20,000 nucleotides of DNA from IMG/VR virus record IMGVR_UViG_3300025934_000016; one strand, given 5' to 3'. The position numbers and the translations under genes were made by a program. Origin of the DNA: an uncultured virus (IMG/VR IMGVR_UViG_3300025934_000016) (Duplodnaviria; Heunggongvirae; Uroviricota; Caudoviricetes). Below the pieces are notes generated by a model. That model saw only the letters and a program-made list of their open reading frames with translations, did no database searches and had not been told where the DNA came from. Positions 2,828 to 19,322 of this stretch are shown here, piece by piece (positions within the stretch are counted from its first letter, which is position 1; the number at the start of each line of letters is the position of its first letter).

Positions 2828-3540
2828 AGTCCCTTGGTTCGCTTCTTCCTGGTCTCCGAGCGATGCCCGCGCCGGTCCTCCTTCAGAAACTTCTTTTTCT
2901 TGGCTTCCGACCCGAACACCTCGGTCCACTTGCGGCCATCGAATATAATTTGGTAGCCGCCGGACAAAAGCTGAAACGGCTTTCGAACCTTCCCCAACTG
3001 ATCGAACGGCACCGACCCTGCCTTTCTGAACACTTCGAAGTAGGACGGATAAATAAAGTCCGACATGGGAATTCCGTTGACTGGGAAGCTTAATGCCTCC
3101 ACCGGGTCGCACGCCTCATACGCATACGTCAGCCGCTGGTTGGGTCCGGTCGTCATCATCTGGATGGCCGGGTCGACTAGCATCTCGGCCAACTCGTGCG
3201 AGGCCGACACCGAGACTAGCTCGCGGTTTTTAAGTGTGGTCTTGACGAATACCTTGGAGACCGGAAACCCGTCCGGAGTAAGATCGTGATAGGCGAGCGC
3301 CCCCGAAACGTCCGCATCATCGATAAACGCCATGGCCCATGCGCCCTTCACAAACCCGTCCGACTTGACGAGCTTGGCGGGACTTGCCCACCTTGGTGCG
3401 ACGTAATTGTCCACGTAGAGCTGCATGGCCGCGATCAGCTTGTCGAAATCGACCCCGAGGCCGACTGTGGCCTTGTTGAAGCAGGCAATGGTCGGCGTAT
3501 CCCCCTGATTAAACTGGCGTGAAATTGGTTTTTTGGTCAT
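2824..3540 (-). CDS. HExxE zincin-like putative metallo-hydrolase (PHI-1/EXORDIUM-like motif set)
   Basis: ALAYH...SHELAEMLVDP...YEACDPVE...MSDFIYPSYF; AAGGA RBS. Confidence 0.65.
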   Translation of the reverse strand: MTKKPISRQFNQGDTPTIACFNKATVGLGVDFDKLIAAMQLYVDNYVAPRWASPAKLVKSDGFVKGAWAMAFIDDADVSGALAYHDLTPDGFPVSKVFVKTTLKNRELVSVSASHELAEMLVDPAIQMMTTGPNQRLTYAYEACDPVEALSFPVNGIPMSDFIYPSYFEVFRKAGSVPFDQLGKVRKPFQLLSGGYQIIFDGRKWTEVFGSEAKKKKFLKEDRRGHRSETRKKRTKGL

Positions 3541-3550
3541 TTGGTTCCTT

Positions 3551-3820
3551 TCATCCTATAAATCCGTTCCGCTCGCAGTTAACCAAGATCCACCGGCTCG
3601 CCTCGCGCAGCTTCACCGTGATGATTGCCTTGACGTTGGGCGAAACATTTAGGTCGTCCAAGAACTCTTCAAACTTGGTCTCGAGTGCGTCTATGTCCTG
3701 GATACGCTCGGGTTCTGCGTTCGGACCAATAATCTGCCGACCGCAGCAGAGACAGTTCCCTTGTGGAGTGCAGCGGGCGGCTTGACCCGGCTGCATATGG
3801 CCGCACTCAGGGCAACTCAT
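3551..3820 (-). CDS. Hypothetical Zn-ribbon protein
   Basis: CPECGH...C....C.CC N-terminus. Its RBS (AAAGGA) lies in the last codons of the HNH ORF. Confidence 0.7.
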   Translation of the reverse strand: MSCPECGHMQPGQAARCTPQGNCLCCGRQIIGPNAEPERIQDIDALETKFEEFLDDLNVSPNVKAIITVKLREASRWILVNCERNGFIG

Positions 3821-4288
3821 TCACAATCCTTTCACTCCGATCGGGTGCGACTCCTGCGGCTTGGGCGTCTGCTTCTGCTTCCAGCGGATTTTTTTTTCTT
3901 TCCTACAGATTCGACAACGGCGAACACTCGTCAAAGGTTCGCTATAGATATTGCCGTCTACTAGAGCATGGCCGCTTTTGCACTCTGTTTTATGGGCATT
4001 TTTGGCGCTTGGACTCGTGCCTCGCAGAACGTTTACACGATGGGTCACGGCATCAAGATGCTTGGGGTTGATGCACCAAGTGTTTCGGCAAAGATGATCG
4101 ATGGTCAAACCGGCCGGGATTGCCCCGCAGTGTAGACTGTAACTAGCTCGATGCGCATAAAGGTTTTGGTTGCCAACTTTCAGCATCCCGTAACCCCGAC
4201 TCGTTGACCCAAGCCAAATCCAACAGCCCGTGTTTGGCTCCGGCATCGAATAGAATTCGAGTTTCTCTTCCAGCGTTCGGTCAATCAT
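3821..4288 (-). CDS. Free-standing HNH homing endonuclease (HNH_3 type with C-terminal Zn-finger)
   Basis: GCWIW..GYG..AHRASY..IDHLCRNTWCINPKHLDAVTHRVN, then KTECKSGH...RRCRIC. Confidence 0.9.
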   Translation of the reverse strand: MIDRTLEEKLEFYSMPEPNTGCWIWLGSTSRGYGMLKVGNQNLYAHRASYSLHCGAIPAGLTIDHLCRNTWCINPKHLDAVTHRVNVLRGTSPSAKNAHKTECKSGHALVDGNIYSEPLTSVRRCRICRKEKKIRWKQKQTPKPQESHPIGVKGL

Positions 4289-4338
4289 GGCTTTTAGAGT
4301 CCTTTAACGCCCAGAGGATAAGACTCCTGTGGTTTCGG
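3821..4338 (-). repeat. Diverged 45-bp direct repeat (3821..3865 and 4294..4338) encoding PKPQES(H/Y)P(I/L)GVKGL-stop
   Basis: 12/14 aa identical but only 31/45 nt identical; both copies end in a stop codon. Confidence 0.9.
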
Positions 4339-4863
4339 TCTCTTGGTGATATATGGGGGATTGAAGTCGAGCGCATAATTGACGGCCACTTGAAGCGCCT
4401 TGGCTCCCAGATCGAGCGAGTCCCCTGCCGCTGCCGCCTCCAATGCCTCCGCCGATAGCCTCCCCTCTTTGAATAGTTGGTCCACGTTCTGATGACCCAC
4501 CGCCGTCAATGCCCATCGCGGCGCGGACGCCGTGAGGATGTCGATACTCCAGGGTATCCGCCAAAGTAGCTCCCTCTCCTCATTGGTCGGCACCACGGCA
4601 ATGCGAAACTGAAAGCTCTTGTCATACTCCATGAGCGCCTTACGGACTTCGGGCCACATCCCCACATAGGCGTCGAGGACCGTGAACGATTGCGGCTTGG
4701 AGATCGAGAAGATCTCTCCTACCACGCACGCTGCGCCCTCCTGGCGGTCAAAAACAGGTAAAATAATTCCGCTAATGACCCTTCGATATTTGCGATCAAC
4801 GCCATCGACCTTACCAAACCAGTACGGTTCTTCTCCAGGCGGTGATTTGTGGCCGAGGATCAT
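4294..4863 (-). CDS. Hypothetical phage protein (probable host gene of the HNH insertion)
   Basis: Long ORF. The ORF-track start (4974) lies inside the adjacent cassette, so ATG 4863 (MILGHKSPP...) is preferred; start uncertain. Confidence 0.7.
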   Translation of the reverse strand: MILGHKSPPGEEPYWFGKVDGVDRKYRRVISGIILPVFDRQEGAACVVGEIFSISKPQSFTVLDAYVGMWPEVRKALMEYDKSFQFRIAVVPTNEERELLWRIPWSIDILTASAPRWALTAVGHQNVDQLFKEGRLSAEALEAAAAGDSLDLGAKALQVAVNYALDFNPPYITKRPKPQESYPLGVKGL

Positions 4864-4957
4864 GCCGCTAACAGACCGTGCGTAATAGCCCACGACTCCA
4901 GCGCTCCGCGCGTGTTTGAGTTTACTATTGGTAATAATATACTTGGAGATCGCGCAC

Positions 4958-5005
4958 ATGGAAACACCTACCACACTTTGTCGAGGTAAGAAACCTTACC
5001 GCTAA
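4958..5005 (+). pseudogene. Internally deleted transposase relic (METPTTL|CRGKKPYR*)
   Basis: GGAG RBS plus ATG directly inside the left IR. The start resembles IS1595 transposase N-termini (M..P.TL) and is joined to DNA resembling the C-terminal GKRLTY motif (GGT AAG AAA c CTT ACC). Confidence 0.4.
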
Positions 5006-5023
5006 ACCGTAAAGGAGAAGTTT

Positions 5024-5809
5024 ATGGATACGTCAACGATAAGATCGGCCGACCCTCACTCGGATGGAGATACGTCGCGAAAAGTTTCCGGCACTGCTTT
5101 CCCTTATTATAACCTCGCTGACACTGTATTGGTGGCCAAGGCGATTCACGACAAGGGCGGCGGGTCTGCCTCGCGTGAACAAATCGCCGCTTTCCTTGGA
5201 TATAAATCGGTACAGAACGGGGCGTTTTTAACCCGAATTGGCGCTGGAAGGACGTTTGGACTAATTGCAGAGATGAACAAGCAGCTTCGGGTGACGCCGC
5301 TCGGCTATAAAATAATCTCACCGGAAACTCCCGAGCAGTATCGTGAAGGATTGGTCGAATCTTTTTTGACGGTGCCATTATTCAAGGCTCTTTATGATGA
5401 ATACCGGGGAAGAGATTTACCCGAAGGGCTAGGACTAAAAAACGCCCTTCGTTTGAAGTTTCAAATCGTTCCCAAAAAAATCGATCTTGCATATAGGCTG
5501 CTTTTTGAATCAGCTGAAACCGCTGGCTTTTTTGAGACGCGGGGAAGCAAAACGCAACTTATTGTGCCTGTAATCAAATCTAGGCCGTCAGCTGAACCCG
5601 AGAATAAAAACCTGGCTGTAAATACAGGGTTTGGACGCGGCGGAGGAGAACCTCCGGATGGAACCTCTAAGCTGACAAAATCAAAAGATGATCTTCAAAA
5701 CGAATATATAGAGACACTGATAAGCTTATTACGCGAAAAGAGTAAGAACGGCGAAATGGACGATCAACTGATGGGTCGAATTGAACGATTGCTTGAGTTG
5801 AAGACCTAG
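5024..5809 (+). CDS. Tandem winged-helix-like DNA-binding protein (moron/passenger)
   Basis: AAGGAG RBS; FPYYNL...SREQIAAFLGY...FGLI...VTPLGYKII wHTH-like pattern, second helical domain, low-complexity linker and short C-terminal helical domain. Confidence 0.75.
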   Translation: MDTSTIRSADPHSDGDTSRKVSGTAFPYYNLADTVLVAKAIHDKGGGSASREQIAAFLGYKSVQNGAFLTRIGAGRTFGLIAEMNKQLRVTPLGYKIISPETPEQYREGLVESFLTVPLFKALYDEYRGRDLPEGLGLKNALRLKFQIVPKKIDLAYRLLFESAETAGFFETRGSKTQLIVPVIKSRPSAEPENKNLAVNTGFGRGGGEPPDGTSKLTKSKDDLQNEYIETLISLLREKSKNGEMDDQLMGRIERLLELKT

Positions 5810-5815
5810 TAAGGC

Positions 5816-5850
5816 GACGGCATACCGGACTGGAACTCCAGTATGCCGTC
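5816..5850. terminator. Stem-loop just downstream of the 261-aa gene (possible terminator)
   Basis: GACGGCATAC (5816-5825) pairs perfectly with GTATGCCGTC (5841-5850); no clear U-tract. Confidence 0.45.
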
Positions 5851-5957
5851 ATTAACCGCAGCGCTGGACACGCTCATATGTACCTCAATTTCTTGAGGCG
5901 CGGTTGTATCTGGGGTTTACCCCGCCCGCCACCATTTTGCAACAGAGGCTTTTTGGC

Positions 5958-6005
5958 GCTCTATTCAGGGGAGCGTCCCTAGACAAGATTCTCCCCTAAT
6001 AGAGC
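5958..6005. repeat. Inverted repeat with single-base bulge upstream of the 47-aa gene
   Basis: GCTCTATT(C)AGGGGAG ... CTCCCCTAATAGAGC: 15-bp stem, 17-nt loop. Confidence 0.6.
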
Positions 6006-6036
6006 TTTATTATCGCAGCAATATTAGGAGTATTCA

Positions 6037-6180
6037 ATGAGTAAGAAAGATCAACCGAAATCACGACTGATCGGCCGTGATGCTAAGACAGGCGAGTTTA
6101 AGCCTGTTGATTGGGCTCGCGCGCAGCAAAACAAGGATAAAGCCGTTGTGGAACGGTTGCCGTTGCCTAAGAAAAAATAG
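6037..6180 (+). CDS. Small basic protein with GRDAKTGxF motif (47 aa)
   Basis: AGGAG RBS at 6026-6030; MSKKDQPKSRLIGRDAKTGEFKPVDWARAQQNKDKAVVERLPLPKKK*. Below the ORF-track cutoff. Confidence 0.8.
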   Translation: MSKKDQPKSRLIGRDAKTGEFKPVDWARAQQNKDKAVVERLPLPKKK

Positions 6181-6181
6181 G

Positions 6182-6448
6182 TTAACGATCCTTTAATATT
6201 GTCATCTTCACGACCGACTTAGTCGGTATTGTGATGTTACCGCAACCATGAAGGAGAATGTCACCGTTTTGTTCCCCGGCTAAGTGCGGCACGATTGACT
6301 TAACCCTCTTGTCATCGTGGATAAGCCAACCAACGGAACGACAGTACAGCGGTTCCGCAGCCTGCTGTATCTCCTTCAGGTCTTGCCATCCCCTAGACGC
6401 ATGAGAGTCGAGCCATTCAATTAAGACAAGCTTTAAATTTTCTGGCAT
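6182..6448 (-). CDS. Conserved-type small beta-rich phage protein
   Basis: LVLIEWLDS...GW...CRSVGWL...IP...V pattern. Convergent with the 47-aa gene; ATG lies 3 nt inside the right IR with no RBS. Confidence 0.75.
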   Translation of the reverse strand: MPENLKLVLIEWLDSHASRGWQDLKEIQQAAEPLYCRSVGWLIHDDKRVKSIVPHLAGEQNGDILLHGCGNITIPTKSVVKMTILKDR

Positions 6449-6516
6449 TTGGTATACTTTACCAATATGCCAACAAAAATACTAAAGGCTCATCCTTCGC
6501 CACCGTTTGAGCGATT

Positions 6517-6621
6517 TCAGCAATTAACCTCATCGACTCGATAACAGCGCTCTAAAGCGTTGATATAGGACTCGTAGAGAGCGGGCGTACTATCGGTCGG
6601 AACCATCGCTAAAGTATTCAC
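6517..6621 (-). pseudogene. Probable truncated gene fragment
   Basis: GGAG RBS plus GTG; MNTLAMVPTDSTPALYESYINALERCYRVDEVNC* resembles the 'Y..A..AL..C..VDEVK' N-terminus of longer phage proteins. Stops about 50 nt before the cassette IR. Confidence 0.35.
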
Positions 6622-6637
6622 TTCGGCGCTCCAATCT

Positions 6638-7012
6638 TCATGTTTTGGCCAGCGGCGGCGCCGTAACGGGCGTCACGTCGGGTTCGGGCATCCGGATAGG
6701 TGGCAACTGGCCCGTCTCTACCGCAATAATATTGGTCGGTTGCAGTGCGATGAGCTTCTGCGTGCTCTCGGTCAATTGGGTGGAATCGAGCAGCGGCGGC
6801 TGGGTATAATCCCACAGCTCGCGTTGAAACCCGCTTGTGGCCTGGTCCACCATGTTCTGTATGCGGGCGTTAAACTGTGCCCGCGCCTTGGTGAGGCGGG
6901 TATAATCGTCTTGACAATACTTGCGCTCCCCTTCATCGACCACCTGCTCGCCTGGCGGAAGATCGCTCAAGATGCGCCGACACGCCCCGTCACATCGATA
7001 CTCAACCGGCAT
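6638..7012 (-). CDS. Hypothetical protein
   Basis: 124 aa; CDGAC...YC N-terminus, coiled middle, Pro-rich tail. Confidence 0.7.
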   Translation of the reverse strand: MPVEYRCDGACRRILSDLPPGEQVVDEGERKYCQDDYTRLTKARAQFNARIQNMVDQATSGFQRELWDYTQPPLLDSTQLTESTQKLIALQPTNIIAVETGQLPPIRMPEPDVTPVTAPPLAKT

Positions 7013-7015
7013 TTC

Positions 7016-7165
7016 TTACCCCACCCTTCCCCCGTTCTCGTGCTCTTGCTGGTGCGCCTTTAAACACTGATCCGAGCAAAGCCGCACGACAAACAGGTGC
7101 TCGGTGCAGACATACGGCAGCTCCGCCTCAAAGATCCCCTTGCAGTGAAAACAGCGAAGTCTCAT
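7016..7165 (-). CDS. Small Zn-finger protein (49 aa)
   Basis: ATGA-coupled; MRLRCFHCKGIFEAELPYVCTEHLFVVRLCSDQCLKAHQQEHENGGRVG* (CxxC...CSxxC). Not in the ORF track. Confidence 0.65.
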   Translation of the reverse strand: MRLRCFHCKGIFEAELPYVCTEHLFVVRLCSDQCLKAHQQEHENGGRVG

Positions 7166-7371
7166 CGGTGTCCAAACGACGGCGCATGACCACCGCCGCT
7201 AATCATCGGGGCAATCCAGCTTATGAGAAAGATGATCGCCACCACCACGACCACAATCCGGATGATTGTCTTGAAGATCGGGTCCATGGGAATATACGTT
7301 TCGATCAGGTAGATACACAGCCCGACTAGCGCAATTGCCAGAATCAAATAGATAAGTCCCATTGGGTCCAT
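7162..7371 (-). CDS. Two-TM small membrane protein (Thivi_2564-like)
   Basis: GGAGG RBS; LIYLILAIALVGLCIYLIETYIPMDPIFKTIIRIVVVVVAIIFLI. Confidence 0.8.
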   Translation of the reverse strand: MDPMGLIYLILAIALVGLCIYLIETYIPMDPIFKTIIRIVVVVVAIIFLISWIAPMISGGGHAPSFGHR

Positions 7372-7372
7372 T

Positions 7373-7513
7373 TTAGTTTCCCTCCTTTGATACAACCACC
7401 TTCCAGATCGCCCGCTTGACCTTGTTCACCACCGCCACCGCCCGGATGACCGAGAGATAGTAGATTCGCTTGGCCGTGCTAAGATCGTTCTGCTGCTGGT
7501 TAGATTGCGGCAT
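7373..7513 (-). CDS. Small hypothetical protein (46 aa)
   Basis: TGATG-coupled; MPQSNQQQNDLSTAKRIYYLSVIRAVAVVNKVKRAIWKVVVSKEGN* fills the gap exactly. Confidence 0.6.
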   Translation of the reverse strand: MPQSNQQQNDLSTAKRIYYLSVIRAVAVVNKVKRAIWKVVVSKEGN

Positions 7514-7764: not shown

Positions 7765-10452
7765 TCAGAACGCATGTTGCACTCCTGCCGATGGGAATAT
7801 TCGGTTCAATCCGCTTCTTTGTTGAACGAGGAGTGCTAGCGAAAAGGCTATCACCCGATCATCGAAACACCCGTCTTGAGCCTCACAGCGGCCATTCTCC
7901 ATGATTCCAAATGTCTGCAATTCAGCAATTAAATCCTTGTCGTTGATCGATCCGTGTTCGCCCTTTGATCCGAGTGACTCCAGATATTCGCCAACTAGGT
8001 TTACCAGCATGGGTTTCGTTCGCTGATCGGTGCGCATCCCTAGTCGGTTTTGTTGCGGGTTTCGGATATCTGCTGGTTGATGAGTGTAGATATGCGGATA
8101 GCCCAGGTCTCGTGACAGTTTGTGCAGAACCAAATTCCCATGGCCCCCTGCATTGTTCTCAACGCAGACGTTGGCGCGATTGTAGAGATTCCCGAGCTTG
8201 GTGAGTTCCTCGGAAAATAGCGCCGGCTCCATGTGGCCGTGCCAGGCGGCAGCAATCGACGCATCGGCGCAGTCAAGCACATAGGCGGCGGAATAATCCC
8301 CGCCTTCGACTCCTTCGGCTACGTCGCAGTTGTGGACGGCCAAGTATCTCGCCAAGTAACTATGCGATGATGTTTCAAAATTGTTGACACATCCGACGTA
8401 TTGACTAACCTCGTTTTTCGCCACCTTCACAAAGAGATATTTCCCATCAATCCAGGCATACGTGCTATTACTACGGCCCACAGGATGCCCGTCAAAGATA
8501 GCGGCCATCGCGGTTGTGGATATCCGCATCTGAAAAGCAGCCTTTTGCTTGTACTCCTTGTCCTTGCCAGGAAAGGAACAGACACCTTCGTCTCTCAACT
8601 TGCTGACTCCAGTAAACATTCCACAAGACAATAAAATGTCTTGGAAATCATTAATCAGACCTTTGGAAATTGAGACACAAGCACCCGCTACGTGGTTTCT
8701 AGATCGAACGGTTCCCCCATCGCCGTCGAAGTAGCCCCTGAAAAACTCTATCCGTAACGGTTTCGGAATCGTTTTAACCCACGGTGGCACTCGCTTATTT
8801 GCCGCTCCACGGCCAAATTGCTGCAAAAAGCGATACATACTCTCGCATGTGAATTTGACCTCAATGACGTTCTCTTTCTCAGTATATTGCGGCGATCTGT
8901 TGAACAGACGAGCAATTAACCTCGCCGCTCTGTCGGCAACCGGCTTATCTACTTTCAGATTCAGCGCCACGGCCACTTGGTAGCCGTAATCTCCTTTTCG
9001 AGGATCAGAAATACGCGCTTTCCATGAGTACCCGTCAGCCAAATAAAGACCGACAAACCACCAAAAGTCGCCGTCCTTTAAGATCGAGGAATCGATAACA
9101 CGATCAACTCTTACCTCGCTTTGCGACGGCCATCTCGAAGGATCGATGTCCACTTCCTGTTGAAACGGAAGAGGTATCCGCACAAAATCACCGGCATTTA
9201 CGGTTTGCGCCTCTTTCCAACTACAGAACGAAGGCTTCTTTCGCCTCCGATCACCGTTGGACACTCGTTGCTCTGTCCTTACGCCGTCCACCGTCCATAC
9301 TGGATGCTCTGGAGTCAACCGAACCGGATCGATAAACCCCTGCACCTTGATAGAGTGAATCGGGCCGTCGTATGGCCTGCGCTGGATGCTTTTAATGCCC
9401 GTCTCGGTGCCGTCTATGTCGTAGAGCAAATCGTCTAGGCCTACCGCCTCGATTTCCTTCCAGCCGTCTCGAGTCAAAACCTGCTCACCATCAGGCAAAC
9501 AGCCTATCACGTACCGATGCCGCAGGTCAGGCGGCGCCCACATCTTGACGTACCCGCCCGCCTTCTCCTCGAGCTTGACGTGGAGCAGGTTCTCATCGGT
9601 GGACGGCAGCAATCCCTGAAACGATGGGACTGTGGCGAGCTTCTTTAAGTCGTCGAGCTGGTCGAGGTTAAACCGGGGAGTACCGATGAACATATCGACC
9701 CGCTCGCCCTCGACAAAGCGCCTGACGAGGATTCGCGGCCAAGTTGCCGTTAACTCCTCGTAATACCCCGGACGCAAGTTTGCCTGATTCTCGCTTGTCG
9801 GCGTAAACCAGTGTTCCCATGTCACTGGCGCAATGCCGGGGAGATTAAACACCATGGTGCCGTGGCGCTCATCCCCGCTTTTATCGATGATTCGTTTGCT
9901 TGCCCAATGGGAACGGGAGGGCGGATTGGAGGTTAGCGCAATCTCGGGCTGCTCCAGCCCTTCTTGTCTAAGTCGGCTGTAAGCTAAATCGAAAACTTCC
10001 TCAGATATTCCGGGACTTACCCTTTGCTCTACTCCTGGCAAGTAGGCCGGGGCTACTTCTTCCAATCCTATAAAGCCGTACTCCGTCGATAAGAACATGC
10101 TGGCATCCTGGGCCGTCTGGCCGTGCCGGAATAATACTTCGTGCATCCGACCGTCCGGGGTGCGAAGCATGTAATCGGCAGGATTGGATTTGGAGATGTA
10201 ACCCATCATGCTATTGTCCGGGAACCACCTGAGCCACGTTTTAAGCGTACTGTCGGATAAGTTGCGGTACGTATCCCTCATAATCACAGCTCTAAGAGAA
10301 ACGCCGAGCTTCGATGCCTGCACCGCCTTAAAGAACACCCGCCATACCAACCAAGTGCTCTTCGCAGTCCCAATTGAGCCCCACACATACTTTAATCGGG
10401 CGCGACTTTGATGAGCTGCTACTGCGACCGGGCCAAAGTGATACTCCGGCAT
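7765..10452 (-). CDS. terL: Phage terminase large subunit, intein-containing (about 504-aa extein)
   Basis: Walker A-like WGSIGTAKST, Walker B GFIGLEEV, motif III TSNP; nuclease motifs YVIG|CDVAEG.EGGDYS, CVENN, DDRVIAFSLA. Confidence 0.92.
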   Translation of the reverse strand: MPEYHFGPVAVAAHQSRARLKYVWGSIGTAKSTWLVWRVFFKAVQASKLGVSLRAVIMRDTYRNLSDSTLKTWLRWFPDNSMMGYISKSNPADYMLRTPDGRMHEVLFRHGQTAQDASMFLSTEYGFIGLEEVAPAYLPGVEQRVSPGISEEVFDLAYSRLRQEGLEQPEIALTSNPPSRSHWASKRIIDKSGDERHGTMVFNLPGIAPVTWEHWFTPTSENQANLRPGYYEELTATWPRILVRRFVEGERVDMFIGTPRFNLDQLDDLKKLATVPSFQGLLPSTDENLLHVKLEEKAGGYVKMWAPPDLRHRYVIGCLPDGEQVLTRDGWKEIEAVGLDDLLYDIDGTETGIKSIQRRPYDGPIHSIKVQGFIDPVRLTPEHPVWTVDGVRTEQRVSNGDRRRKKPSFCSWKEAQTVNAGDFVRIPLPFQQEVDIDPSRWPSQSEVRVDRVIDSSILKDGDFWWFVGLYLADGYSWKARISDPRKGDYGYQVAVALNLKVDKPVADRAARLIARLFNRSPQYTEKENVIEVKFTCESMYRFLQQFGRGAANKRVPPWVKTIPKPLRIEFFRGYFDGDGGTVRSRNHVAGACVSISKGLINDFQDILLSCGMFTGVSKLRDEGVCSFPGKDKEYKQKAAFQMRISTTAMAAIFDGHPVGRSNSTYAWIDGKYLFVKVAKNEVSQYVGCVNNFETSSHSYLARYLAVHNCDVAEGVEGGDYSAAYVLDCADASIAAAWHGHMEPALFSEELTKLGNLYNRANVCVENNAGGHGNLVLHKLSRDLGYPHIYTHQPADIRNPQQNRLGMRTDQRTKPMLVNLVGEYLESLGSKGEHGSINDKDLIAELQTFGIMENGRCEAQDGCFDDRVIAFSLALLVQQRSGLNRIFPSAGVQHAF
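8329..9501 (-). mobile_element. Intein with LAGLIDADG homing endonuclease (391 aa) in TerL
   Basis: Begins CLPDGEQVLTRDGWKEIE, block B LTPEHPVW, LAGLIDADG motifs FVGLYLADG and FFRGYFDGDG, ends AVHN before +1 Cys. Confidence 0.95.
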
Positions 10453-10910
10453 CGATAGTAGCTCTCCAGTGCTTGTTGGCGTCGCAATTCTGGATTAGCC
10501 CAATAACGTTCGCGGTTTTTAACTCGGCAGCATATCCGGCACCTTCGTCTATTGCCTAATAACCTAAGATTCTCTCCTTCCAGCGGATGACCCATTTGAC
10601 ACATAGATTTGCGAGCGTTTAGGGCTGGCGGCCCTACGCCCCGTAGAATGTTCTCTCGGTCGGTTACTAACTCAAGATGCCAAGGATTAACGCAGCTTCG
10701 CACGCGGCAAAGATGATCGGGCACCAGCCCTGGCGGAATCGGTTCTCGATGCTGGATATATGAATAGCGATGGGCCTGGCGGTCATTGTCGCCATTCCAC
10801 CGAAATTTGCCGTATCCCTGGTGAGTTAGGCCCGCGATCCATAGCCAACATCCAGTATTCGGTTCTGCGATATACTTCTCTTCGAACCGTTCCAGTGTGG
10901 TCTTATGCAT
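10419..10910 (-). CDS. Free-standing HNH homing endonuclease between terS and terL
   Basis: EPNTGCWLW..GYG..AHRYSY..PDHLCRVRSCVNPWHLELVTDREN, KSMCQMGH...RRCRIC; paralogous to 3821..4288. Confidence 0.9.
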   Translation of the reverse strand: MHKTTLERFEEKYIAEPNTGCWLWIAGLTHQGYGKFRWNGDNDRQAHRYSYIQHREPIPPGLVPDHLCRVRSCVNPWHLELVTDRENILRGVGPPALNARKSMCQMGHPLEGENLRLLGNRRRCRICCRVKNRERYWANPELRRQQALESYYRCRSITLARSQ

Positions 10911-14792: not shown

Positions 14793-15434
14793 TCATGACG
14801 CCACGCGCACCAACCTAATTTTTTTTTGGCGTTCGCGTAGTGCTCGCTCGCGCTTGATCGCTAGAAATAACTTTTCCAACTCAGCATCGGTAAGATTCGA
14901 CAACATCCGAAATACCCGCTCAATGCGCCGTGGCGGTTCCGTTCGCTTATTGCCATGCAGCCGAAAATGACGGACACGCGGACCTAATGCTCGTTGATGC
15001 TTTACGCGATCGCCGGTCGCGCTCTTTACTTTCAATAACTTAGCCTCGCTTTCTTTAAACCCGAACGGCATAATCGGTCGCCCTGGAACAGCCGGATTCT
15101 CTGCTCTTACTTGCTCGATGCTACGGCGATACTCGTCGGTCCCGGTCTTTCGTTCATCCATCGCCTTATCGAGTTGCGCCTTAAACTTAATATCCCGTAT
15201 GCCATGAACCACGTCGTCGCGCTTGACGCCACACTGAGAGAGGAAATAATCAAACTCCCCAGGCAAAAAATGATAGACGCCGAGGTTGTCCTTGAAATCC
15301 ATCCACACTTTCGATTCCAGCAGTGACTTGACCAGATCGGACATACGAGTAAAGCCCAAATTAGCTATGTCCAGCGAAAACCGATGCACCTGCCGACCGT
15401 TCAAATCCAAACGGGTCACATTTTTAATCGTCAT
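14793..15434 (-). CDS. Hypothetical protein, partner of the HNH-helicase
   Basis: 213 aa, ATGA-coupled on both sides. Confidence 0.75.
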   Translation of the reverse strand: MTIKNVTRLDLNGRQVHRFSLDIANLGFTRMSDLVKSLLESKVWMDFKDNLGVYHFLPGEFDYFLSQCGVKRDDVVHGIRDIKFKAQLDKAMDERKTGTDEYRRSIEQVRAENPAVPGRPIMPFGFKESEAKLLKVKSATGDRVKHQRALGPRVRHFRLHGNKRTEPPRRIERVFRMLSNLTDAELEKLFLAIKRERALRERQKKIRLVRVAS

Positions 15435-17462
15435 GCTTCGGTCCTTTCTTCTTGTTCAAACTCCATGTAGGGCTGCAGCGGTTCATTGTGAGCTTGGCAG
15501 TGCTCGACGACTCGATCACGGACCCAGCTCCACAACAGTTTAAGTTTGTCATTGTCCGCCTGATCGCGTTCGCCATTGGGGATTCCCGCCGCTTCGTTCG
15601 CCTTGGCTTGAAACTGGCGCACGTCCTGAAACCGTGTTTCGTGGCCAATGTGGGCGACCATGTAGCGAGTCAGCTCGTTAATTCGAGCGCGATGAGCCAG
15701 GTTCACGTCACGAGGATTGGCGGGCATTGCGCTTAGCGGTTCGCCACGAGAATAAGTCCTCCAGGAGGGTGGCGGCCGGCGCGCGATCACCGCAATCCGC
15801 GGCGCGAAGGTTTGCGGAATACCGATATTCGCGCAAGCAGCCAGATAGTGATCCAGCTCCGGCGCTAAAACCTCGCCATCTTCCTGATCGAGGACATTGG
15901 CCGAAATGAGTTGAGGATCGGATAGACCCAAAAGCGAAAACACCGGCAAACGCTCGCCAAGACAACCACCACCACCGCTACCGCCGTCTATCTGTCGGTT
16001 CTCATCGAGCTCATGGAGCGTGGTCGCTAAAGCTGCGGCGAACACTTTGCGCAGCGGCTTAACGTCCGGGATTAGAATGTTCGCCGGTAACACCATTGGC
16101 ACGGCGCGTTCAACATCGGAGATACGCATGGCCCGCGCCATCATTTGAGTCACATAAAGCAGGGCTGTCACATTTGAGGCATAGGCAATGACGGAAATGT
16201 TCGGATCGTTAAACCCCTCGGTAATCATGTTGACGGCGACATAGGCAAGAGGGCTTTTTGATCCTTTGACGCGAAATAATTCCCTTTTCGCTGCTGTTTC
16301 GGATGAGACGATGCAGGCGGCAAAATCCTGGTTCATGATCGCGTTTATTTCGTCGGCCATAAGGCGAGCCGCCCTCTGGCTGTGCGCAATCACGAGCATT
16401 TTTAGCGGTGCGCGATAATCGATCGCCATCAGTTGGCGCTTGTGCAGCTTGATTGCGGCACTAAAGAAACCCCCGGCGCCACTCCCGATGAAATACAGCG
16501 CCCCGCAGTACAGCGTGCTGCTGGTCAACGTCGAGATCGGCAATTTGGCCGCTGATCTCCTCCTCTTTGCGCAGATCAATCAATCGCGCCTCGCCGCCAA
16601 ATACATACACATCGGGCGGGCGCAGTTCGAGCCGGATCAAGTCCGAGGTGGGAACCGAACAGTCGGCGATGGCCTGGATACTGCCATTTTCGATGTTCTG
16701 ATACCGTACTGTCGAAATGCGCCTGGACCCGCCCGACCGAAACAATGTCCCGGTGGAATTAAGAACCGCCTCGGCATGAAGCTCGTTTTTGAGAACGTCG
16801 CCAGCGCACATCCTCGCGGCTTTGCCCCAAGACAGGTTATCGCCAAGATGATGAACCTCATCAAACACTATGAGGGTGGCAATCCGCTTGAAATCCTCGG
16901 CATGAGCAAACGCCGATTGCGGCAGCGCCTGGTAGGTGTGGACCAGCCCTACGGTGTTCGGGTGCTCAATGTGGTTGTCTCGTGGCTGATCGTCCAAATG
17001 GATTTTTAAAACCTTTAGGTCATCGCACCATTGTTTGACCAGCGCGCAATTTGGAACAACGATCACCATGCGCTTGACGATTCCCAGATCGTACAATCGC
17101 TTGAACACCAAGCCTGCAAAGATTGTTTTTCCGGCTCCTGGCGCTGCGTGTAAAGTCGCAAACCCAGAGGCGTGCAGTACCGTGAGTATTTTTGGCAGTG
17201 ATTGGGCCTGCCAATCGCGTAGGATAATCTCTTTGAAGACCTCCTCGTCTTTCGCGCCGAGCTTGAGGTTACACTTGGCACATTGGGCGCGCATTTCGTC
17301 TATGGTAGTGGCGCCTCCGCTACTCCAGGCGATGCCATGCGCGCCGTGCCAGTCCGCACCGAGGTCATCGCCGCAGTTCTCGCACTTTCCTTGCGCGCGA
17401 GCGTACAGTAGGTTGGCCTCCTCTAGGGTCAATCGCCGCCGCCGATCACGGCCATAGTTCAT
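15431..17462 (-). pseudogene. HNH-like domain fused to SF2 (ResIII/DEAD-like) helicase, split by a single +1 frameshift (or sequence error)
   Basis: N-terminal CENC...H..H....GGATT....CAKCN; LRDWQ, APGAGKT, DEVHH, STGTLFRS in 16461..17462; MITEGFNDP and QMMARAMR in 15431..16579. Removing one base in the C5 run at 16470-16474 gives a continuous 676-aa ORF. Confidence 0.8.
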
Positions 17463-18278: not shown

Positions 18279-19322
18279 TTACTTCACCTCACCGCCCATC
18301 ATTGCCGAGGCCATGTTGCGCTCGTGCAGGTATCGCTCGGCGTCAAACTTATCTCTCACTTCGCCCTGAAAGTTCCGATTACAGTGCATCAGCTCGCCGT
18401 TGGGTAGCCAGTAGCCGAGATCGCCGGTGTGATACTGGCCGTTACGAAACTTAGCCGCCGTCAGTTCGGGGTCGTCGTAATAGCCGTCCGACAGGTACGG
18501 CGAGCACACTCTAATTTCGTCGGGTTCGCTCTCGCTTGGCCCTGCCCAAATCTTAACGCCCCGGACCGGCCTACCCACTGGCATCCTACCCTCGCCTATC
18601 GGGTCGTCATGCTCCACTCGCTTGCGGCAAATGACTTGCGCCTCGGTTGCCGTGAAGCGATTGATAAAAGAACCGTTCGGGAAACAGAGCTTATATAGCT
18701 CGACATCTCCCCAGCGAACCATTTCGCCGCCCACATCGACAACCTTGACGGTTGGAAAGGTAAATATCCCCGCCACGAGCCAGCGATACGTTGTCGCCAG
18801 TGTCGGAAGGTAGGTTATCCCCTGCTCATTGACCCACATCCGAAGCGATACGTTTTTCGGTCCTGGGAACACGCACAGAGTCCCGCCACCCAAAAGCGTT
18901 AAAAGCATTTGTCGCCATGCCGCCATGCCCCAACGATGACTTCCGGTGCGGGTCTGTGGCCCTATCCCAAGGTCGCTAATATCGGTGTCGGCCTGAGCGA
19001 TTGCCGCCGCATGGCTTATCATCACGGTCTTACCCGCCCCCGTGGTTCCGCTCGTCGATTCCAGGTAGGCCACATCGGGCGAGATCTGTTTGACAACTGG
19101 GGCCGCTCGCCCCTCCAGCCACACTGGAATTTGCGCCTTCCAGCCGGCCATTGCGTTAATCGCCCAGAGCGGATTGGGCACGATGGAATTCATTGGCGAC
19201 GTTGCCAGCGTGTCGCTTTCGCGGTCGAGCTCGGCATAGGTCATTTCCGCGTTGCCGTAGCGCACCGCCACGCGCGAAGGATACTGGCGCACCACTTCCC
19301 TAAAACGCTCCTCGATCCTCAT
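18279..19322 (-). CDS. Truncated stand-alone adenylation (ANL/AMP-binding, NRPS A-domain-like) protein
   Basis: MTYAELD (A1), AYLESTSGTTGAGK (A3), GGE, NRFTATE (A5), GYYDDPELTAAKF (A6), YHTGDLG (A7). No C-terminal subdomain or A10 Lys motif. Confidence 0.88.
   Translation of the reverse strand: MRIEERFREVVRQYPSRVAVRYGNAEMTYAELDRESDTLATSPMNSIVPNPLWAINAMAGWKAQIPVWLEGRAAPVVKQISPDVAYLESTSGTTGAGKTVMISHAAAIAQADTDISDLGIGPQTRTGSHRWGMAAWRQMLLTLLGGGTLCVFPGPKNVSLRMWVNEQGITYLPTLATTYRWLVAGIFTFPTVKVVDVGGEMVRWGDVELYKLCFPNGSFINRFTATEAQVICRKRVEHDDPIGEGRMPVGRPVRGVKIWAGPSESEPDEIRVCSPYLSDGYYDDPELTAAKFRNGQYHTGDLGYWLPNGELMHCNRNFQGEVRDKFDAERYLHERNMASAMMGGEVK

What the first reader, a model, noticed from the sequence alone, without database searches (positions are those of the whole stretch)
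3821..4338. HNH endonuclease that brings a synonymously recoded replacement 3' end for the gene it invades
Seen: the upstream gene ends PKPQESYPLGVKGL* and the HNH ORF ends PKPQESHPIGVKGL*. That is 12/14 aa identical but only 31/45 nt; 8 of the 12 conserved residues use different codons. AAA GGA is unchanged and serves as the RBS for both the HNH and the downstream gene. The copy fused to the HNH has mostly G/C-ending codons and abuts the next ATG, while the copy now ending the host gene has more A/T-ending codons. Known: free-standing HNH genes home without introns and need their own allele to resist cleavage. Inference: the cassette 'recoded tail + HNH' inserted into the 3' end of the host gene, repaired it with a cleavage-resistant tail, and took the ancestral tail as its own C-terminus. 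This would be splicing-free intragenic homing. The retained frame may also mean the GVKGL tail is functional on both proteins.
Basis: partly seen in the sequence, partly recalled or inferred. Interest (0 to 1): 0.78.

Follow-up and report, generated by a model that had tools for sequence, protein, structure and literature searches.

The report
Phage nuclease swaps host gene's tail
A selfish DNA-cutting gene has landed 15 codons before the end of a phage gene and brought a differently spelled copy of that ending, so the invaded gene stays whole without splicing, a trick known from fungal mitochondria but little described in phages.

Summary
Observation confirmed and insertion shown. A 473-bp cassette (3869-4341, 3-nt junction ambiguity) sits at codon 175 of a 189-aa phage gene with a terminase-nuclease-like fold. 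The closest HNH-less relative (L001) is identical to the host gene for the 21 nt before the site, then matches the HNH-fused tail at 44/48 nt and the host's present tail at 30/48; 8 of 9 compared relatives favour the HNH-fused copy. So the host's tail is the newcomer and the HNH carries the displaced original. The tail motif is conserved in the host family, not in HNH relatives: no support for a function on both proteins. Divergence equals synonymous saturation, so deliberate recoding is not shown; cleavage is untested. A screen found the same layout (head or tail) in 3 of 260 other HNH loci (0 of 1038 controls). This is the layout of fungal mitochondrial endonuclease ORFs that carry foreign C-termini; ten searches of an open-access library found no phage description. 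This scan noted the same class four times on other DNA.

The parts
4342..4863 (-). Host gene body, codons 1-174 of a 189-aa phage protein with a predicted RNase H-like fold (terminase nuclease domain / RuvC); function unknown
   Evidence: 12 homologs of 145-192 aa; AlphaFold pLDDT 77.9; VIA-align Z 11.2, rmsd 3.3, 138 aligned to D6E large terminase, RuvC Z 10.8; no Pfam or PHROG family
4294..4341 (-). Replacement tail (15 codons plus TAA) carried by the cassette, in frame with the host gene
   Evidence: 28-32 of 48 nt identical to the tails of the five closest HNH-less relatives, 36/48 to L006; 8 of 11 shared residues differ in codon from L001 against 5 of 130 in the adjoining body
3869..4288 (-). 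HNH endonuclease coding region, residues 1-140: HNH_3 catalytic domain (D64, H65, N86) and C-terminal Cys/His zinc-finger-like part; own stop codon lost at the junction
   Evidence: PF13392 E 2.1e-11, above cut-off; phrog_826 E 1.4e-41; invariant columns; best Foldseek rows I-HmuI E 4.7e-3 and I-PpoI; relative P0014 ends 4 residues past this point
3821..3868 (-). Displaced native tail of the host gene (15 codons plus TGA), now the in-frame C-terminus (residues 141-155) of the HNH; holds the likely Shine-Dalgarno of the next gene
   Evidence: 44/48 nt to L001, 42 to L002, 41 to L004, 40 to L005, 38 to L003; 15/15 aa to P0002, L002 and L004
3869..4341 (-). Whole inserted cassette, 473 bp (replacement tail, 5-nt spacer, HNH); a 3-nt AGA at 4341-4343 and 3868-3870 makes the exact ends ambiguous
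   Evidence: Comparison with empty allele L001; blastn L001 3372-3419 to window 3870-3823, 95.8%
3551..3820 (-). 89-aa ORF in a variable slot behind the native tail; not part of the duplication, absent from the HNH-less relatives
   Evidence: No tblastn hit of note in L001-L015; L001, L002, L004 have other ORFs or spacers here, L003 none

Best explanation
A mobile HNH endonuclease cassette inserted between codons 174 and 175 of a conserved phage gene. It carries, ahead of the HNH, an in-frame copy of the gene's last 15 codons from a diverged lineage, so the host protein keeps its conserved C-terminal motif with no splicing; the native tail is pushed behind the HNH and, the HNH's own stop having been lost at the junction, is read as its C-terminus (shown). 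Origin, inferred: a break in the host gene was repaired from a diverged phage in which the HNH lay just behind the same gene, homologously on the left and by microhomology inside the last HNH codons on the right. Spread, inferred: the layout is now that of a mobile intron (left arm = host body, right arm = old tail and beyond); the HNH nicks or cuts the uninterrupted allele at or near the junction, repair copies the cassette, and neither junction of the occupied allele re-forms the site.
For: Empty allele L001: 21 nt identical up to the site, then 44/48 to the HNH-fused copy versus 30/48 to the new tail; 8 of 9 compared relatives favour the fused copy. None of 13 relatives with a 3' end has an HNH behind the gene. 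Sharp step in synonymous divergence at the site, 5/130 versus 8/11. Host tail motif G185/G188/L189 invariant in 13 of 13 aligned and GxxG[LIVM] at the end of 17 of 19 further representatives with E<=1e-30, so a replacement is needed; the site lies past the folded domain. HNH catalytic residues intact with I-HmuI spacing (H65-N86; I-HmuI D74/H75/N96 from PMC12724721 passage). The cassette shows no difference in 4 of 4 laid runs while the host body beside it varies, two X11 variants being L001's alleles; the new tail occurs with three head types among 15 listed cluster members. Same layout at other genes in 3 of 260 HNH loci at >=11/14, 0 of 1038 controls; at L071 the HNH is likewise fused to the old tail and the 3 closest relatives match the fused copy better. 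One-sided repair with microhomology junctions is described for T4 (PMC2988022 passage).
Against: No cleavage or homing data. Known free-standing phage endonucleases cut hundreds to thousands of bases from their gene (PMC2988022 passage), so the target may lie elsewhere. The donor of the new tail was not found (best match 36/48, L006, which is the one relative favouring the new tail). No joint skipping the cassette in the 4 of 24 runs laid, and no empty allele that also has the 89-aa gene was seen, so the right homology arm in recipients may be only ~48 bp. Whether P0144 and P0148 carry the HNH could not be seen. These phages recombine freely (mosaic heads and slots), which also spreads a cassette over haplotypes. 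At L071 two more distant relatives (L382, L384) match the new copy better. Foldseek matches of the HNH are all above E 1e-3.
Confidence: 0.62

Rival explanations
1. One-off illegitimate recombination: a segment 'tail + HNH' from a diverged phage was spliced in once; the HNH targets another site (ordinary intronless homing with a distant cut) or nothing, and the allele spreads by general recombination. The structure is the same, but the new tail has no role in immunity.
For: Tail divergence equals saturation (8/12 observed, 7.4 expected) and equals L006-versus-others divergence; donor needs no special recoding; region is mosaic; distant cut sites are the rule for T4 free-standing enzymes; layout found in only about 1-2% of screened HNH loci.
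Against: Recurrence of the same layout at unrelated genes, in head and tail versions; the divergence step sits exactly at the junction with 21 identical nt before it; cassette invariant while flanks vary.
Confidence: 0.27
2. In-place duplication followed by divergence: the HNH inserted with a 48-bp target duplication and the upstream copy then drifted or was selected to escape self-cleavage, the cassette ageing as a unit while homing keeps renewing its flanks.
For: No sampled relative has the new tail's R175 or Y182 without belonging to the R-tail type; AAA GGA is shared by the two window copies and by none of the 13 relatives' tails, which could reflect common origin, conversion or RBS selection.
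Against: The supposedly free downstream copy is the one that stayed close to empty alleles (1/14 codons changed versus L001) while the working copy is saturated; no intermediate tails seen; a diverged donor is the accepted reading of the mitochondrial cases (PMC3630166).
Confidence: 0.08
3. The tail is a functional peptide on both proteins (for instance a docking motif) and the fusion was selected.
For: Frame and 15 residues are kept on the HNH in all copies seen (P0133, P0134); L071 and L200 also show in-frame fusion; the motif is conserved in the host family.
Against: In-frame fusion has a one-in-three prior and rescues an HNH that lost its stop; L065, L261, L318 and L193 are not fused; 1 of 120 HNH relatives ends in a similar string; recent origin or renewal by homing explains the conservation.
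Confidence: 0.03

Closest known systems
Mobile endonuclease ORFs (mORFs) of fungal mitochondria that form gene hybrids: Allomyces macrogynus atp6; Glomus sp. atp6, atp9, cox2, nad3; Rhizopus atp9; Mortierella cox2 (PMC3630166, passages read; Paquin et al. seen only as cited there)
   Same: Endonuclease gene inserted in the 3' part of a conserved gene, preceded by an in-frame foreign C-terminus; native C-terminus displaced behind it, close to the relatives' sequence (91-98% nt there, 92% here) while the new one is far (64-81% there, 63% here) mostly by silent changes; no splicing.
   Different: Phage genome, HNH (His-Me finger) enzyme rather than LAGLIDADG or GIY-YIG; only 15 codons replaced; the displaced tail is fused in frame to the endonuclease; mirror-image head versions occur in related HNH loci; activity not shown here.
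Free-standing phage homing endonucleases, intronless homing (T4 Seg and Mob; PMC2988022 and PMC13565253, passages)
   Same: Intron-less HNH gene with N-terminal HNH_3 and C-terminal zinc-finger-like part as in the Mob class (PMC10448857 passage); promoter-less cassette in an operon; optional among close relatives.
   Different: Those sit between genes and cut far away, relying on polymorphism for immunity; this one sits inside a gene and leaves a duplicate terminus. Aeh1 mobE and T4 mobA insert inside genes but split them instead of repairing them.
Mycobacteriophage Omega gene 51 HNH, which gives lysin A a new 3' end (PMC3706429, passages)
   Same: Phage HNH acquisition that changes the 3' end of the upstream gene.
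   Different: There 35 bp of the target are lost; no displaced copy and no synonymous equivalent is described.
Engineered home-and-rescue gene drives (HomeR in Drosophila PolG2; PMC7968924, passages)
   Same: Nuclease cassette inserted near the end of a gene with a re-coded 3' end that restores it.
   Different: Synthetic, Cas9-guided, diploid; here natural, protein-guided, and homing is inferred.

Membership tests
HNH_3 (PF13392) / I-HmuI-like HNH endonuclease | HNH_3 domain above the curated cut-off | tested here: met
   43.7 bits versus 24.8, E 2.1e-11
HNH_3 (PF13392) / I-HmuI-like HNH endonuclease | Catalytic D-H...N residues intact | tested here: met
   D64, H65, N86 invariant in 35 of 35 aligned; same H-to-N spacing as I-HmuI H75/N96
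HNH_3 (PF13392) / I-HmuI-like HNH endonuclease | Fold like solved homing endonucleases | tested here: inconclusive
   Top Foldseek rows I-HmuI (E 4.7e-3, TM 0.31) and I-PpoI, none at E<=1e-3; no PDB sequence match
Homing endonuclease gene | Optional: cognate allele without the gene exists in close relatives | tested here: met
   13 of 13 relatives with a 3' end lack it; L001 gives the exact site
Homing endonuclease gene | Cleaves the empty allele and spares its own | not testable with these tools
   Needs purified enzyme
Homing endonuclease gene | Biased inheritance by gene conversion | tested here: inconclusive
   Invariant cassette on variable flanks in 4 laid runs and new tail on three head types fit, but general recombination fits too
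mORF-type gene hybrid (foreign terminus + endonuclease + displaced native terminus) | Foreign C-terminus in frame with the host gene, ahead of the endonuclease | tested here: met
mORF-type gene hybrid (foreign terminus + endonuclease + displaced native terminus) | Native C-terminus displaced downstream and closer to relatives | tested here: met
   8 of 9 compared relatives
mORF-type gene hybrid (foreign terminus + endonuclease + displaced native terminus) | Mitochondrial location and LAGLIDADG or GIY-YIG enzyme, as in the described members | tested here: not met
   Phage context (terminase genes) and HNH enzyme: works like them, is not one of them
mORF-type gene hybrid (foreign terminus + endonuclease + displaced native terminus) | Hybrid gene is expressed | not testable with these tools
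   None of the 24 listed runs was on record as RNA (DNA search)
Group I intron or intein carrying an endonuclease | Splicing element around the endonuclease | tested here: not met
   No Rfam match at E<=1 in 3000-7000; the cassette is 48 nt of tail, 5 nt of spacer and 420 nt of HNH coding, with a stop ending the host frame

The most novel reading that the evidence does not exclude
Phage HNH_3/zinc-finger endonucleases form a recurring class of terminus-swapping homing elements: they cut within the first or last ~10-30 codons of conserved genes and carry a synonymous substitute for that end, which both rescues the gene and makes the occupied allele immune. That is a third route into genes beside introns and inteins, a natural home-and-rescue drive, present in at least 1-2% of this HNH family's loci in head and tail versions, with the cut site readable from the junction.
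Probability: 0.45. Interest if true: 0.7.

Novelty: new variant of a known kind. Interest (0 to 1): 0.53.

Why it matters
If the cut is at the junction, each such cassette tells its enzyme's target directly from sequence, which is rarely possible for free-standing phage endonucleases, and gives small (140-aa) nickases or nucleases with known sites. It shows that phage endonuclease genes can enter conserved genes without introns or inteins, the solution known from fungal mitochondria and re-invented in engineered rescue drives. It also explains mosaic gene ends in phage genomes and warns annotators and tree builders that a gene's terminus, and an HNH's terminus, may be foreign. This locus is a clean test case because an exact natural empty allele (L001) is at hand.

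Tried and rejected
No whole genome is held for the window. The host gene had no relatives in viral contigs or genome contigs, so the phage's host is unknown; the tail pattern found 0 matches in viral contigs. Read laying on 4 of 24 runs showed no joint that skips the cassette; contigs drop rare variants, so this is no evidence of absence. ESM Atlas gave no usable hit for the host protein; the HNH profile matched no PDB sequence. Promoter and terminator scans were at chance level; no Rfam match. L071's host gene has no match in the annotated phage collection; polarity at L193, L200, L065, L261 and L318 was not tested against empty alleles. Rejected: GC3 as evidence of origin (p 0.06); assembly artefact; common tail on unrelated genes (only two copies in the window); low-complexity screen hits such as L323 and L134; the faint Pfam rows on 6638-7012 and 7162-7395, below cut-off. 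The first screen statistic (BLOSUM segment score) had an inflated null (max 65 of 600) and was replaced by identities in 14-aa windows with GC-matched controls. Literature: ten searches found no paper describing this layout in phages; the library lacks most subscription papers and I read passages, not whole texts or supplements, where such cases could be noted. The rps3 LAGLIDADG cases in Ophiostoma (Sethuraman 2009) are recalled and seen only as a title in a reference list.

Full report
Setting. The window is phage or prophage DNA: large terminase with a LAGLIDADG-bearing insertion at 7765-10452, a second HNH at 10419-10910, helicase and RusA-like genes. No whole genome is held. Holders of the stretch are rhizosphere and soil metagenomes (24 runs of 23 studies listed). 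The host bacterium is unknown.

The observation. On the minus strand the upstream gene and the HNH end in 14-aa tails that are 12/14 identical with 31/45 nt identical; 8 of the 12 shared residues use different codons; AAA GGA is shared; G/C-ending codons are 11/14 in the HNH copy and 6/14 in the host copy. In 1038 GC-matched pairs of unrelated HNH flanks the best 14-aa window reached 10 identities, so this is not chance. Contigs from other runs span both junctions (X6 record 9, 3000-4453, no difference; X11 record 2, 3740-4438, 3 differences), so it is not an assembly artefact. The host gene starts at 4863 and encodes 189 aa.

Empty alleles. A metagenome scan gave 15 loci of the host gene; 13 include its 3' end and none has an HNH behind it (L002 and L008 hold only 235 and 176 nt of downstream DNA, L009-L011 and L007/L012 have identical tails). 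L001 is identical to the window's host gene for the last 21 nt before codon 175 and then matches the HNH-fused copy at 44/48 nt and the host's present tail at 30/48. The same comparison gives L002 42 versus 30, L003 38/30, L004 41/32, L005 40/28, L013 37/26, L007 24/21, L008 28/22 and L006 34/36: 8 of 9 compared favour the fused copy (L009-L012 were not compared, three having a one-codon insertion and one repeating L007). P0002, L002 and L004 end in all 15 residues of the HNH's tail. The insert is therefore 473 bp, 3869-4341, with a 3-nt AGA at both ends. Against L001, 5 of 130 shared codons differ in the host body (codons 37-174), 8 of 11 in the new tail and 1 of 14 in the displaced tail. The prediction that empty alleles run into the 89-aa gene fails: it has no homolog in L001-L015 and the slot differs in each relative.

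Why a replacement is needed. The host protein folds, by prediction, like a terminase nuclease domain or RuvC (pLDDT 77.9; Z 11.2, rmsd 3.3, 138 aligned; Foldseek best E 8.3e-4); a shared fold shows no function. Residues 173-189 are low-confidence, so the site lies just past the domain. The last residues are nonetheless conserved: G185, G188, L189 are invariant in 13 of 13 aligned, and 17 of 19 further representatives with E<=1e-30 (25 of all 49, many fragments or distant) end in GxxG[LIVM]. The HNH family does not share it: 1 of 120 relatives matches the pattern, and the closest one (P0014, 67%) stops four residues after the point of fusion. The fusion looks like a by-product that gave the HNH a stop codon.

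The enzyme. HNH_3 above cut-off, D64/H65/N86 and the Cys/His ligands invariant in 35 aligned, H-to-N spacing as in I-HmuI (PMC12724721, passage), N-terminal HNH_3 with C-terminal zinc finger as in the Mob class (PMC10448857, passage). The model (pLDDT 92.5) ranks I-HmuI and I-PpoI first but above E 1e-3.

Recoding or borrowing. Eight changed codons of 12 equals the saturation value of 7.4 under the phage's codon usage, and L006 (74% protein identity) differs from the other relatives' tails at 7-9 of 12-14 shared codons. A tail taken from a diverged homolog explains the pattern with purifying selection alone; selection for immunity is possible but not shown. The donor was not found. AAA GGA is shared by the two window copies and by none of the 13 relatives' tails; RBS use is an inference.

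Signs of movement. In the 4 of 24 runs laid, no difference lies within the cassette, while the host body next to it varies at 4345, 4375 and 4384; two of these are L001's alleles. Of 39 members of the host's 90% cluster, 15 were listed: 6 have the new tail (one is the window's own) on three head types and 9 the old tail; their DNA was not seen. No joint skipping the cassette appeared. This fits homing and fits general recombination too.

Recurrence. From 359 loci of this HNH family (best-80 sets, not a random sample; plus five of my own), 269 clusters at 90% and 261 with flanks were screened for translated repeats across the HNH. At >=11/14 identities there were 4 of 261 (the window, L071, L193, L200) and 0 of 1038 controls; at 10/14, 3 of 261 against 5 of 1038. 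L071 is an exact parallel: tail duplicated, 12/12 aa and 29/36 nt, HNH fused in frame to the downstream copy; its three closest relatives match the fused copy better (33/29, 29/26, 33/27 of 36 nt), two more distant ones the new copy (32/29, 32/30), the other 21 are within a few bases or mixed. L200 is the mirror image (HNH fused to a gene's head, a second head behind it; the gene looks like a DEDD exonuclease by recall). L193 duplicates the head of an endolysin with the HNH on the other strand. L065 and L261 (tails ending at the real stop) and L318 (head) are plausible below the threshold. The window's second HNH and the HNHs of L001, L013 and L014 show no repeat. So the layout recurs in about 1-2% of loci, a lower bound given the short ungapped windows.

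Mechanism. Shown: insertion site, polarity, frame restoration, loss of the HNH's own end, no room for or match to a splicing element. Inferred: origin by one-sided repair, homologous in the host gene and by microhomology at the HNH's end, a pathway described for T4 (PMC2988022, passage); later spread by intron-like homing with a cut near the junction. Against this last step, T4's free-standing enzymes cut far from their genes. I put the full account at 0.62; the structural part alone is near certain.

What is known. The layout is that of fungal mitochondrial mORFs carrying a foreign C-terminus (Allomyces atp6; Glomus atp6, atp9, cox2, nad3), where mobility was credited to the endonuclease (PMC3630166, passages; partial duplications also in PMC7487136, passages). 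In phages I found intergenic free-standing enzymes, gene-splitting insertions (PMC2988022), an HNH that gave lysin A a new 3' end with loss rather than duplication (PMC3706429, passages) and an out-of-frame HNH inside a methylase (PMC11855218, abstract). The engineered counterpart is HomeR (PMC7968924, passages). Ten searches of an open-access library found no description of the duplicate-terminus layout in phages; no supplements were read. Four earlier notes of this scan report the same class on other genomes; I did not check their loci, and I had reached the mitochondrial comparison before seeing them. No note concerns this locus or its relatives.

Verdict. Real, well resolved, a phage HNH variant of a known mitochondrial strategy; homing at the junction is likely but untested; deliberate recoding and dual function of the tail are not supported.

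Noticed in passing
L001 2305-2865 and L002 1135-1695: A different HNH sits at the 5' end of the same host gene, taking the ATG coupled to the upstream gene; the host's codons 2-36 there diverge (15 of 29 shared codons differ from the window against 5 of 130 in the body), like a co-converted head with no duplicate left. Both ends of one gene have been invaded by different HNH genes.
   Followed up: partly
window 4294-4863: The host protein is a stand-alone terminase-nuclease/RuvC-like domain a few genes behind terL, with a conserved C-terminal GxxGL; no Pfam, PHROG or Atlas label; 51 representatives at 50% identity.
   Followed up: partly
window 4864-6632: A 1.77-kb insert between the 124-aa gene and the host gene, absent from L003 where the two genes overlap; holds a 261-aa ORF on the opposite strand and an 88-aa ORF, lower GC (0.45-0.48); its first bases resemble the start of the L002 HNH, perhaps a remnant.
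   Followed up: no
window 7765-10452: Large terminase with a LAGLIDADG-bearing in-frame insertion (intein-like, about 8326-9502) that L001, L004 and L005 lack.
   Followed up: partly
window 10419-10910: Second HNH_3 gene between the putative small terminase and terL; absent in L004, L005 and L011, another HNH in the same slot in L014; no terminus duplication.
   Followed up: partly
L071 368-914, L200 1872-2450, L193 1900-2710, L065 1870-2470, L261 367-970, L318 1448-1920: Further HNH loci flanked by synonymous duplicates of a neighbour's head or tail; candidates for the same class.
   Followed up: partly
window 18279-19322: AMP-binding (adenylation) enzyme gene in a phage context (PF00501, E 1.6e-20).
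   Followed up: no
window 15431-17462: HNH-helicase (ResIII/DEAD) ORF 16461-17462 overlaps a 382-aa ORF in another frame; possibly one gene split by a frameshift.
   Followed up: no
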